Source: Escherichia coli
Lineage (GTDB): Bacteria; Pseudomonadota; Gammaproteobacteria; Enterobacterales; Enterobacteriaceae
Reading direction: 5' to 3' (one strand)
Length of the DNA: 64,000 nt
NCBI RefSeq assembly: GCF_013315695.1
Contig: NZ_CP054353.1
Shown: one piece after another, positions 57,001 through 60,000 of the stretch
Layout: each line of letters opens with the position of its first letter
Numbering within the stretch: the stretch's first letter is position 1
Position numbers: made by a program

Positions 57001-60000
57001 AACATCAACCAATGGTATGTACGCAACGCCTCTGGCACGATGGCACCGCTTTCTGCCTATTCGTCTACCGAATGGACCTATGGTTCACCGCGACTGGAAC
57101 GCTACAACGGCATCCCGTCAATGGAGATTTTAGGTGAAGCGGCGGCCGGGAAAAGTACCGGTGACGCCATGAAATTTATGGCAGACCTGGTCGCTAAACT
57201 TCCGGCAGGCGTCGGCTACTCATGGACCGGACTGTCGTATCAGGAAGCGTTATCCTCAAATCAGGCTCCCGCGCTGTATGCCATTTCACTGGTCGTGGTG
57301 TTCCTCGCCCTCGCCGCACTTTATGAGAGCTGGTCAATTCCGTTCTCGGTGATGTTGGTTGTACCGTTAGGCGTCGTTGGCGCATTACTGGCCACCGATC
57401 TACGCGGCTTAAGTAATGACGTCTACTTCCAGGTTGGTTTGCTGACCACCATCGGGCTTTCCGCCAAAAACGCCATCCTGATTGTCGAATTTGCCGTTGA
57501 GATGATGCAGAAAGAAGGGAAAACGCCGATAGAGGCGATCATCGAAGCGGCGCGAATGCGTTTACGCCCAATCCTGATGACCTCTCTGGCCTTTATTCTC
57601 GGCGTGCTGCCGCTGGTTATCAGTCATGGTGCCGGTTCTGGCGCGCAAAACGCGGTAGGTACCGGCGTAATGGGCGGGATGTTTGCCGCAACAGTGCTGG
57701 CAATTTACTTTGTTCCGGTCTTTTTCGTTGTAGTGGAACATCTCTTTGCCCGCTTTAAAAAAGCGTAACGTGTAAATGAGAGTAAGGTTGAACGTGAAGG
57801 TTCAGCCTTACTCTTTCCTGCTAACCATTCACCATTCAACAACCAGCTAACCGTCAGGAATACCAGGCTTAGTACACAGCACTGAAAGTAGAAACCACTC
57901 CAGCCATTCGTCATCAATTTGAACAGCACAATACTGACCCACATTCCCGTAATCGTATGAATTGTCAGCTTAATAATCCCAAACATGCCGAGTCTTTTCC
58001 TCCTGAAAATACCTATACCGCCTGGCAAACTGCGAAAGAGAATTAGCCGGTAGCCCGGCAGAAATCATCAGGGAAGAGTTTCACATGAAGCAGGTGTGAG
58101 ATCCTGACCAATATTCAAATGCAAAATATGTCAGGAAAAGGTACCTGGCGAATGTTGCGCAAACTGATGTGGCGTTACACCATAATATTGTCGAAATGTG
58201 TTTATAAAGTACGACGTACTGCTATATCCACATTTTTCCGCAATAGTATGCAGAGGAATTTGACGTAACTCGAGTAATCGTCTGGCCATCGACATCCTGG
58301 AGGCGAGTAATATTTTACTGAAACAGGTATTTTCATCCTGCAACTTTTTTTTGATGAGACTCTCGCTGGTATACATTCTTTCTGCGATATCGCGCAGATA
58401 CCAACGTTTGGCGATATCAAAGCTAATAAGGCGTTCAACTTTTCCTGAAACAGTACTGATACTATTGAAAAGTAAGGGGATCAGTTCTTTCTTATGAGAA
58501 AACATTGATAAACAGGAAAGGTAGAGCATTTTGCTCAGTATCGGCGAATTGACCCGGGGGTCATTGAAACTATCAAAAATCGCCGTCACCAGCGGCATGG
58601 GGGGTGACTGGTTAATTAACAGACGGTCTTTGCTATGTAACCCTAAATTGCGTGGTATCTGACGAATATTTTGTAAGTAATGGCAAACTGTCAGCTCATC
58701 GATATCCAGTCGTCGCGTATCCGGTGAACAAAACGCAAAATCGTCTGCCAAATTTTTATCCAGCAGCAGGATACTCTCGTTGTGCAACGATATTTTTTGC
58801 TGTTCATGATAAATATCGAATGAACGACGAACGAGGATCACCGAGCAGACATGAGTCATGACTATCCCTTATATTTCATTACTGCGATTATTTCAATTTC
58901 AGTATACTAATGAAATGATGCCAGACTGTTTCTTAGCGCAAAAACTGCCAGATTTGGTAGGACCAAAATTTATCCACAAAGTAGTTTTGCATAACAGTTA
59001 ATTGACAATAAGTAAATGCAACACGAATATATTTTCGCACAGCGTATAGCTTATGTTTATAAAAAAATGGCTGATCTTATTTCCAGTAAAAGTTATATTT
59101 AACTTACTGAGAGCACAAAGTTTCCCGTGCCAACAGGGAGTGTTATAACGGTTTATTAGTCTGGAGACGGCAGACTATCCTCTTCCCGGTCCCCTATGCC
59201 GGGTTTTTTTTATGTCTGAGTAAAACTCTATAATCTTATTCCTTCCGCAGAACGGTCAGTGCCGTAAAAATTCCCTTGCGCAGCTATACTTGCCGCCGGG
59301 CCACAGTTCGGTAATTCCTGCGCCGATCGCTCCTGATACTCTGTGGGCGTCATCCCATAATAATTTCGAAAAACGTAAATGAAATACGACACGCTGTGAT
59401 ATCCACAGGATACTGCAACTCGCTTAATTGAAACCCCATATATAACAATAAGTTGTAAAGCACGCTGCATCCTACACTCAGTAAGCAACTGTGAATATGA
59501 CGTACCTTCTTCGCGCAATTTTTTCTTTAACAGGCTTGGACTCATCAACAATTCGCTAGCAATTCGGGCTAATGTCCACTCATGGGCGATATTATTATTG
59601 ATGACCGTACAAACTCGTGTTCGCATATTCGGTTGCAACACGTTCAGAAGTAACGGTATAAACTGCGTATCCTCAAGAAAAACAGATAACAACGCAAAGA
59701 TTAATGCCCTTTTACGTAGCATTTCTGCATAGCGAAGATTCTTATTCTGCGATAGTTGCGCAACTTCCTGAAAAACAGGAATATCTCTGGTACAGTGATG
59801 AACGAGTAATGAAGGAACTTTTTTATGTGCATGAAGTTTTAATGCCTCCTCCTTGAGCATCGGGAGAAATAATGAAAGCGTGTCTCTTGAAACTAATACG
59901 AAATTCTCAACACACTTATCCACTTGAATTTGGCTTGCATCCGCAAAAACCAGATCACCGCCATTAAAATAGCGATATTCACCATTAACCATGGTGAGAA

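What the first reader, a model, noticed from the sequence alone, without database searches (positions are those of the whole stretch)
59108..59227. GadY sRNA terminator abutting the gadX stop
A strong + strand intrinsic terminator (cccggtcccctatgccggg then T8) ends about 15 bp before the gadX stop codon on the opposite strand, as expected for GadY, which base-pairs with the gadX 3' UTR. Together with the intact GAD box at gadA, this indicates the regulatory circuitry is complete in this strain.
Basis: partly seen in the sequence, partly recalled or inferred. Interest (0 to 1): 0.2.

Follow-up and report, generated by a model that had tools for sequence, protein, structure and literature searches.

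The report
GadY small RNA gene, already known
This is the well-known E. coli small regulatory RNA gene gadY with its own transcription terminator, letter-for-letter identical to the laboratory strain K-12, so the finding is correct but ordinary.

Summary
A + strand hairpin (59185-59203, 6 bp, 5 G-C) is followed by T8 (59204-59211). It ends 16 nt before the gadX stop codon (TAG, 59228-59230, minus strand). Rfam's GadY model (RF00122) matches 59103-59216 over its full length at 150 bits (gathering score 45, E 8e-32). The K-12 gadY gene (b4452) maps to 59106-59211 and is 106/106 identical, as are the 46 nt of promoter upstream.

GadY is at least 99% identical in 5412 of 5426 complete E. coli genomes. 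It is 98-100% identical in other Escherichia species whose flanking gadW and gadX genes are only 77-81% identical. The RNA is so invariant that no compensatory base-pair changes exist to test its structure.

The mechanism comes from published K-12 work and was not tested here. GadY is an Hfq-binding antisense RNA. It pairs with the gadX 3' UTR / gadX-gadW intergenic RNA, directs RNase III-dependent processing and raises gadX mRNA levels; it also acts in trans.

The claim that the circuit is "complete" holds only inside the window: gadE, gadW, gadX, gadA and an exact GAD box are intact. rpoS, evgAS, ydeO, gadBC, hfq and rnc lie outside it. Novelty: already known.

The parts
59067..59074 (+). 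ATGGCTGA, a match to the AppY-associated motif ATGSCWGM, which is reported to overlap the -35 of the gadY promoter
   Evidence: Read from the sequence. The motif and its position at PgadY are described in PMC10057817. The site is identical in K-12 and nearly invariant in other Escherichia.
59071..59099 (+). Inferred gadY promoter: weak -35 CTGATC (59071-59076), 17-nt spacer, -10 TATATT (59094-59099), 6 nt before the annotated 5' end
   Evidence: Inferred from the sequence and the K-12 annotated start. The simple sigma-70 scan did not report it because the -35 is weak. 46/46 identical to K-12.
59106..59211 (+). gadY gene (small regulatory RNA GadY, full-length form)
   Evidence: Rfam RF00122 hit 59103-59216, 150 bits, E 8e-32, model positions 1-114 of 114. 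K-12 b4452 maps here and is 106/106 identical.
59106..59152 (+). GadY 5' stem-loop domain (outer helix 59106-59109 / 59149-59152; inner helices 59112-59116 / 59140-59144 and 59123-59128 / 59133-59139); contains GGA at 59137-59139
   Evidence: Rfam consensus structure and RNAalifold consensus. The single-sequence fold is weak (z -0.77).
59157..59177 (+). GadY middle stem-loop (7 bp, 7-nt loop) with GGA at 59163-59165 at the top of the stem
   Evidence: Isolated fold -8.7 kcal/mol, z -2.76. CsrA binding to GadY and its two GGA motifs are reported in PMC10729762.
59185..59211 (+). Intrinsic terminator of gadY: stem-loop 59185-59203 (6 bp, 5 G-C, loop 7) plus T8 at 59204-59211, which gives the RNA its 3' poly-U tail
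   Evidence: Terminator scan; fold -9.5 kcal/mol, z -2.6; invariant in 7 Escherichia sequences.
59212..59227 (.). 16-nt spacer between the GadY 3' end and the gadX stop codon; variable between Escherichia species
59228..60052 (-). gadX (AraC-family acid-resistance activator), 274 aa, intact, stop TAG; its 3' UTR and read-through into gadW are the antisense target of GadY
   Evidence: ORF list. Annotation of the 100%-identical genome and of K-12. 17 aa differences from K-12 and no internal stops.
58131..58859 (-). gadW, 242 aa, intact; downstream gene of the gadX-gadW transcript
60412..61812 (-). gadA (glutamate decarboxylase A), 466 aa, protein identical to K-12
61892..61911 (-). GAD box TTAGGATTTTGTTATTTAAA upstream of gadA, an exact match and the only match with 4 or fewer mismatches in the window
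   Evidence: The 20-bp consensus was taken from my own knowledge; PMC4574537 cites the Castanie-Cornet & Foster 2001 paper on a 20-bp cis-acting sequence but does not print the sequence.
52607..53134 (+). gadE, 175 aa, intact (central activator that binds the GAD box)
   Evidence: ORF translation and the GadE annotation in the near-identical genome.

Best explanation
Window 59106-59211 (+) is the gadY gene, and the hairpin + T8 at 59185-59211 is its Rho-independent terminator. The gene lies in the gadW-gadX intergenic region, is convergent with gadX, and ends 16 nt short of the gadX stop codon. Any gadX transcript that runs past its stop toward gadW is therefore perfectly complementary to GadY; this step follows directly from the geometry. 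According to K-12 experiments reported in the literature (inferred for this strain, not shown here), GadY is made in 105-, 90- and 59-nt forms and binds Hfq; that its promoter is RpoS-dependent and stationary-phase-induced is from my own knowledge of Opdyke 2004, which I could not read. It pairs with the gadX 3' UTR / gadX-gadW intergenic RNA. The duplex is cut in an RNase III-dependent way, and the resulting gadX (and gadW) mRNAs accumulate. More GadX raises expression of gadE, gadA and gadBC, and so raises glutamate-dependent acid resistance. The terminator has a second role: its 3' hairpin and U tail form the standard Hfq-binding module of such sRNAs. On the minus strand the same hairpin has no U tract after it, so it should not terminate gadX transcription. 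This is consistent with gadX-gadW co-transcription.
For: Rfam GadY matches over its full length at 150 bits against a gathering score of 45, E 8e-32. K-12 gadY b4452 (3664864-3664969) aligns to 59106-59211 at 106/106, and the whole stretch 59023-59240 is identical to K-12. The terminator-like site has a 6-bp stem with 5 G-C pairs plus T8, and folds at -9.5 kcal/mol, z -2.6. Gene order is gadW(-) / gadY(+) / gadX(-) / gadA(-), as in K-12. Purifying selection is strong. GadY is at least 99% identical in 5412 of 5426 complete E. coli genomes, whereas gadX is 90-95% identical in 3795 of them. In other Escherichia species GadY is 98-100% identical, against 77-81% for the gadW and gadX CDS and about 71% for the rest of the intergenic region. 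The minus-strand RNA of the hairpin is followed by AAGAGGAUAG, with no U tract. Literature: location and antisense pairing (PMC11300174); gadXW processing with RNase III (PMC10783499); RNase III-cleaved dsRNA captured at gadY in K-12 (PMC7373196); the three forms 105/90/59 (PMC4574537); Hfq dependence and trans targets (PMC5145812); the AppY motif at the gadY -35 (PMC10057817), present at 59067-59074.
Against: No finding contradicts the identification. The limits are as follows. No expression data exist for this strain. The secondary structure has no covariation support (0 of 28 predicted pairs have compensatory changes, and the two substitutions seen in E. whittamii and Escherichia sp. E1V33 each break a pair). 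The whole-RNA fold is no more stable than shuffled sequence (z -0.62). The simple sigma-70 scan did not detect the promoter. The two primary papers (Opdyke 2004, 2011) are not in the held library, so mechanistic details rest on secondary citations and on my own knowledge. RefSeq/PGAP annotations of most genomes do not list gadY; this is a gap in annotation, not evidence that the gene is absent.
Confidence: 0.96

Rival explanations
1. The hairpin is mainly the terminator of gadX (or a bidirectional terminator shared by gadX and gadY), not a dedicated sRNA terminator.
For: The hairpin lies 16-43 nt downstream of the gadX stop, where a gene's terminator would be expected. The stem also forms in the minus-strand RNA at -9.0 kcal/mol, z -2.4.
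Against: On the minus strand the stem is preceded by A8 and followed by AAGAGGAUAG, so there is no U tract. The scan reports the site on the + strand only. The literature describes a gadX-gadW (gadXW) bicistronic mRNA that crosses this region (PMC10783499).
Confidence: 0.04
2. The conserved gadY sequence in this strain is a silent relic: it is present but not expressed or not functional, for example because of an rpoS defect elsewhere in the genome.
For: Nothing in the window shows expression. rpoS and hfq are outside the window. rpoS attenuation is common in E. coli isolates (my own knowledge).
Against: The promoter and gene are identical to the expressed K-12 locus. The near-invariance across 5412 genomes and across species argues for continuing selection. 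The AppY-linked motif is also intact, and that paper measured AppY-dependent gadY induction in a delta-rpoS strain.
Confidence: 0.05
3. The region encodes a small protein rather than, or in addition to, a non-coding RNA (the + strand ORF 59053-59148, 31 aa).
For: the ORF listing reports an ATG ORF of 31 aa that overlaps the 5' part of gadY.
Against: Its start codon (59053) lies upstream of the mapped gadY 5' end (59106), inside the promoter. ORFs of this size are expected by chance in AT-rich intergenic DNA. The conservation pattern covers the whole RNA including the terminator, not the ORF.
Confidence: 0.01

Closest known systems
GadY (gadY, b4452; Rfam RF00122) of E. coli K-12 MG1655
   Same: The 106-nt sequence, the 46-nt promoter region, the position between gadW and gadX, the orientation, the terminator and the 16-nt distance to the gadX stop are all identical.
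   Different: Nothing differs in the RNA itself. The target gene differs: this strain carries the other common gadX allele (93.9% nt identity, 17 aa changes from K-12), and its acid fitness island carries the chu haem-uptake insertion.
ArrS, the other cis-antisense sRNA of the acid fitness island (antisense to the gadE 5' UTR)
   Same: Both are cis-antisense RNAs in the same island, and both were classified by RIL-seq as Hfq-dependent sRNAs that also act in trans on acid-response genes (PMC5145812).
   Different: ArrS overlaps a 5' UTR rather than a 3' UTR / intercistronic region and has an unrelated sequence. I did not search for it in this window.
Generic Hfq-dependent sRNAs with a Rho-independent terminator and poly-U tail
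   Same: A 3' G+C hairpin followed by 8 U, which is the module cited as essential for Hfq action (Otaka 2011, cited in PMC5145812).
   Different: GadY's principal target is encoded on the opposite strand at the same locus, so pairing is perfect and extended rather than through a short seed.

Membership tests
GadY sRNA (Rfam RF00122) | Scores at or above the curated gathering threshold of the covariance model, over the full model length | tested here: met
   150 bits against gathering 45, E 8e-32, model positions 1-114 of 114, not truncated.
GadY sRNA (Rfam RF00122) | Sequence orthology to the experimentally characterised K-12 gadY (b4452) | tested here: met
   106/106 identical; K-12 3664864-3664969 corresponds to window 59106-59211.
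GadY sRNA (Rfam RF00122) | Encoded in the gadW-gadX intergenic region, on the strand opposite gadX, overlapping the gadX 3' UTR | tested here: met
   gadW 58131-58859 (-), gadY 59106-59211 (+), gadX 59228-60052 (-).
GadY sRNA (Rfam RF00122) | Own Rho-independent terminator with a poly-U tail at the 3' end | tested here: met
   Stem 59185-59203 plus T8; -9.5 kcal/mol, z -2.6.
GadY sRNA (Rfam RF00122) | Three-stem-loop secondary structure supported by covariation | tested here: inconclusive
   The consensus fold reproduces the Rfam structure, but 0 of 28 pairs show compensatory change because the sequences are nearly invariant. The whole-RNA z-score is -0.62.
GadY sRNA (Rfam RF00122) | Transcribed from its own (RpoS-dependent) promoter; RNA forms of 105, 90 and 59 nt | not testable with these tools
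   The promoter DNA is identical to K-12. The three forms are reported for K-12 (PMC4574537). There are no expression data for this strain.
GadY sRNA (Rfam RF00122) | Binds Hfq; pairs with gadX-gadW RNA and triggers RNase III-dependent processing that raises gadX mRNA | not testable with these tools
   Known from K-12 work only. Complementarity follows automatically from the antisense arrangement.

The most novel reading that the evidence does not exclude
A purely cis-antisense RNA stays perfectly complementary to its target whatever its sequence. GadY's near-total invariance therefore implies constraints other than gadX pairing. It is at least 99% identical in 5412 E. coli genomes and 98-100% identical across Escherichia species whose flanking gadX and gadW are only 77-81% identical. 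Possible constraints are a broader conserved trans-target set, or Hfq / CsrA / RNase recognition, and these may matter more than the textbook cis role. The two-allele polymorphism of gadX that stops just short of GadY would then mark a selective boundary.
Probability: 0.4. Interest if true: 0.25.

Novelty: already known. Interest (0 to 1): 0.07.

Why it matters
It matters little beyond correct annotation. GadY is a textbook sRNA, and this copy is identical to the K-12 reference. The practical value is threefold. (1) It confirms that a gene which PGAP/RefSeq annotation omits in most E. coli genomes is present and intact here. (2) It shows that every acid-fitness-island regulatory element visible in the window is intact in a chuA-positive, non-K-12 background. 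(3) It documents how much better conserved GadY is than the protein-coding genes beside it.

Tried and rejected
1. I tried to read the primary papers (Opdyke 2004, PMC522195; Opdyke 2011, PMC3030618). Neither is held, so mechanistic statements rely on secondary citations.

2. I looked for covariation support for the GadY structure using orthologues from other Escherichia species. There is none, because the sequences are nearly invariant.

3. The exact-pattern scan of one genome per species (GGAGACGGCNGNCNNTCCTCTT) returned 11 loci. Five Escherichia loci carry GadY. The six non-Escherichia hits (Mesorhizobium, Planctomycetota, Actinomycetes, two Clostridia and Paenibacillus) gave no Rfam GadY match and are chance matches. 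No hit in other enterobacterial genera does not prove absence, because the pattern had to match exactly.

4. I considered the bidirectional / gadX-terminator reading and rejected it, because no U tract follows the hairpin on the minus strand.

5. I checked whether the clustered GadX amino-acid changes at residues 246-257 come from a compensated frameshift next to GadY. They do not; they are point substitutions without indels.

6. The sigma-70 consensus scan did not find the gadY promoter. The promoter coordinates I give are inferred from the K-12 5' end and from the AppY paper's description.

Full report
**Observation.** The + strand reads ...CCTCTTCCCGGTCCCCTATGCCGGGTTTTTTTTATGTCTGAGTAAAACT, followed by CTA, which is the reverse complement of the gadX stop TAG. 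The terminator scan reports a 6-bp stem with 5 G-C pairs and a 7-nt loop at 59185-59203, followed by TTTTTTTTAT. It is one of two terminator-like sites in 58600-59600, where shuffles give 0.8 +/- 0.9. The T8 run is 59204-59211. The gadX ORF is 59228-60052 on the minus strand, and 16 nt lie between the last T and the stop codon. The isolated hairpin folds at -9.5 kcal/mol with z = -2.6. It is a moderate hairpin, and the long U tract makes it a good terminator. The only corrections are about 2 nt at each end: the gene is 59106-59211, and the 3' end is expected within the T run rather than at 59213.

**Identity.** A scan of the whole window against Rfam 15 gives a full-length GadY (RF00122) match at 59103-59216 (+). 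It scores 150 bits against a gathering score of 45, E = 8e-32, and every aligned base equals the model consensus. In E. coli K-12 MG1655 the annotated ncRNA gadY (b4452, 3664864-3664969) lies between gadW and gadX. Aligned to the window, it maps to 59106-59211 and is 106/106 identical. The window and K-12 are in fact identical from 59023 to 59240, which includes the promoter region. Gene order and orientation match K-12: mdtF(+), gadW(-), gadY(+), gadX(-), gadA(-), ccp(-).

**Anatomy.** The Rfam and RNAalifold structures agree on three elements:
- a 5' composite stem-loop at 59106-59152;
- a 7-bp middle stem-loop at 59157-59177;
- the terminator hairpin at 59185-59203.

The elements are separated by U/A-rich and CCUCUU linkers. 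The 5' domain is thermodynamically unremarkable (z -0.77), and so is the whole RNA (z -0.62). The middle hairpin and the terminator are each more stable than shuffles (z -2.76 and -2.6). Two GGA motifs occur at 59137-59139 and 59163-59165. This matches the count given in a study of CsrA binding to GadY (PMC10729762).

Upstream, ATGGCTGA at 59067-59074 fits the AppY-associated motif ATGSCWGM, which is reported to overlap the gadY -35 (PMC10057817). From the K-12 5' end I infer a -10 TATATT at 59094-59099 and a weak -35 CTGATC at 59071-59076 with a 17-nt spacer. The generic sigma-70 scan did not find this promoter, so these coordinates are an inference.

**Conservation.** The 106-nt gene is at least 99% identical in 5412 of 5426 complete E. 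coli genomes, with one chromosomal copy in most. The whole 371-nt intergenic region is 95-99% identical in most genomes. gadX, which starts 16 nt away, falls into two allele classes: at least 99% identical in 1421 genomes and 90-95% in 3795.

An exact-pattern scan of one genome per species returned 11 loci. Five of them carry GadY by Rfam: two E. coli-named genomes, E. whittamii, Escherichia sp. E1V33 and Escherichia sp. MOD1-EC7003. The six non-Escherichia loci do not match and are chance hits. Against these species GadY is 98-100% identical. The gadW CDS is 77-94% identical, the gadX CDS 80-91%, and the gadW-proximal intergenic DNA 71-92%. The 16-nt spacer after the terminator varies between species.

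GadY is thus a sharply bounded island of conservation. Because it is so invariant, there is no covariation evidence for its structure. None of the 28 predicted pairs shows a compensatory change, and the two substitutions in the whittamii/E1V33 lineage each break a pair.

**Mechanism.** What the sequence shows directly is that gadY is convergent with gadX and lies wholly within the DNA between the gadX stop and gadW. Any gadX transcript that continues past its stop is therefore perfectly complementary to GadY. On the minus strand the hairpin is preceded by A8 and followed by AAGAGGAUAG, with no U tract, and the scan found no minus-strand terminator there. gadX transcription should therefore read through, which fits the published gadX-gadW (gadXW) mRNA.

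The rest comes from the K-12 literature through secondary sources, because the two primary papers are not held:
- GadY binds Hfq and pairs with gadX mRNA to promote the glutamate decarboxylase system (PMC11300174).
- In the presence of GadY the unstable gadXW RNA is cleaved at the GadY-binding site, with RNase III participating, to give stable gadX and gadW transcripts (PMC10783499).
- RNase III-cleaved dsRNA is captured at gadY in vivo (PMC7373196).
- Three forms of 105, 90 and 59 nt are seen (PMC4574537).
- RIL-seq classifies GadY as an Hfq-dependent sRNA that also acts in trans on acid-response genes (PMC5145812).
- A trans target, sdiA, has been proposed (PMC11300174).

That this happens in the present strain is inferred from sequence identity. 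It was not shown here.

**The 'complete circuitry' claim.** Within the window the following are intact:
- gadE: 52607-53134, 175 aa;
- gadW: 242 aa, 7 substitutions from K-12;
- gadX: 274 aa, 17 substitutions from K-12, no stops;
- gadA: 466 aa, identical to K-12;
- the GAD box TTAGGATTTTGTTATTTAAA: an exact match at 61892-61911 (-), and the only match with 4 or fewer mismatches in the window.

The GAD-box consensus was supplied from my own knowledge. Regulators outside the window (rpoS, evgAS, ydeO, gadBC, hns, crp, hfq, rnc) cannot be assessed. The claim therefore holds only for the in-window part.

**Rivals.** I considered three rival readings and judge all of them unlikely:
- The hairpin is a gadX or bidirectional terminator. 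There is no minus-strand U tract.
- The gene is a silent relic. The promoter is identical to K-12 and conservation is extreme, although expression is untested.
- The 31-aa ORF at 59053-59148 is a real small-protein gene. Its start lies in the promoter, upstream of the RNA 5' end.

**Novelty and score.** This is a known gene, identical to the reference, in its expected place. The one mildly interesting point concerns conservation. A cis-antisense RNA keeps its complementarity automatically, so GadY's invariance, next to a gadX gene that is among the more polymorphic core genes here, points to other constraints: Hfq, CsrA or RNase recognition, or trans targets. Trans action has already been published, so even this point is incremental. 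Interest 0.07; already known.

Noticed in passing
window 59228-60052 (gadX): gadX is strongly dimorphic in E. coli: at least 99% identical to this window in 1421 complete genomes, but only 90-95% in 3795 (K-12 93.9% nt, 17/274 aa). A cluster of changes at residues 246-257 is due to point substitutions, not a frameshift. The last ~55 nt of the CDS and all of GadY are identical to K-12.
   Followed up: partly
window ~39,500-49,000 (coordinates inferred from the near-identical genome NZ_CP033635.1): The chu/shu haem-uptake cluster (chuS, chuA, chuT, hutW, hutX, chuY, shuU and an ATPase) sits inside the acid fitness island between dctR and yhiD. Rfam finds the shuA/chuA 5' UTR thermoregulator at 43549-43580 (-). 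The strain is therefore chuA-positive and not K-12-like.
   Followed up: partly
window 53252-53323 (+): An Rfam ES205 sRNA match (106.5 bits) lies about 120 nt downstream of the gadE stop (53134). It may correspond to the gadE 3'-UTR-derived sRNA GadF mentioned in the RIL-seq paper. It is also conserved downstream of gadE in two other Escherichia loci (L008, L011).
   Followed up: no
window 32696-32779 and 32930-33012 (+): Two tandem copies of the AgrB antisense RNA (RF02891, 108 and 90 bits) lie beside the dinQ type I toxin gene, between arsR and gorA. This is the known agrA/agrB-dinQ arrangement.
   Followed up: no
window 24655-24697 (+): An Rfam ES036 (CssrF) sRNA match just above its gathering score (42.9 against 37.6 bits).
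   Followed up: no
window 59106-59211; RefSeq genomes generally: PGAP/RefSeq annotation lists no feature under gadY in the complete genomes listed (20 rows sampled at even steps from the 5412 matching records, plus the best-matching genome). Of the two annotations I read directly, only the curated K-12 record carries the ncRNA. This is an annotation gap, not a biological absence.
   Followed up: partly
E. coli genome collection: 14 of 5426 complete E. coli genomes have no GadY match, and a few have two copies (5418 places in 5412 genomes). Neither group was examined.
   Followed up: no
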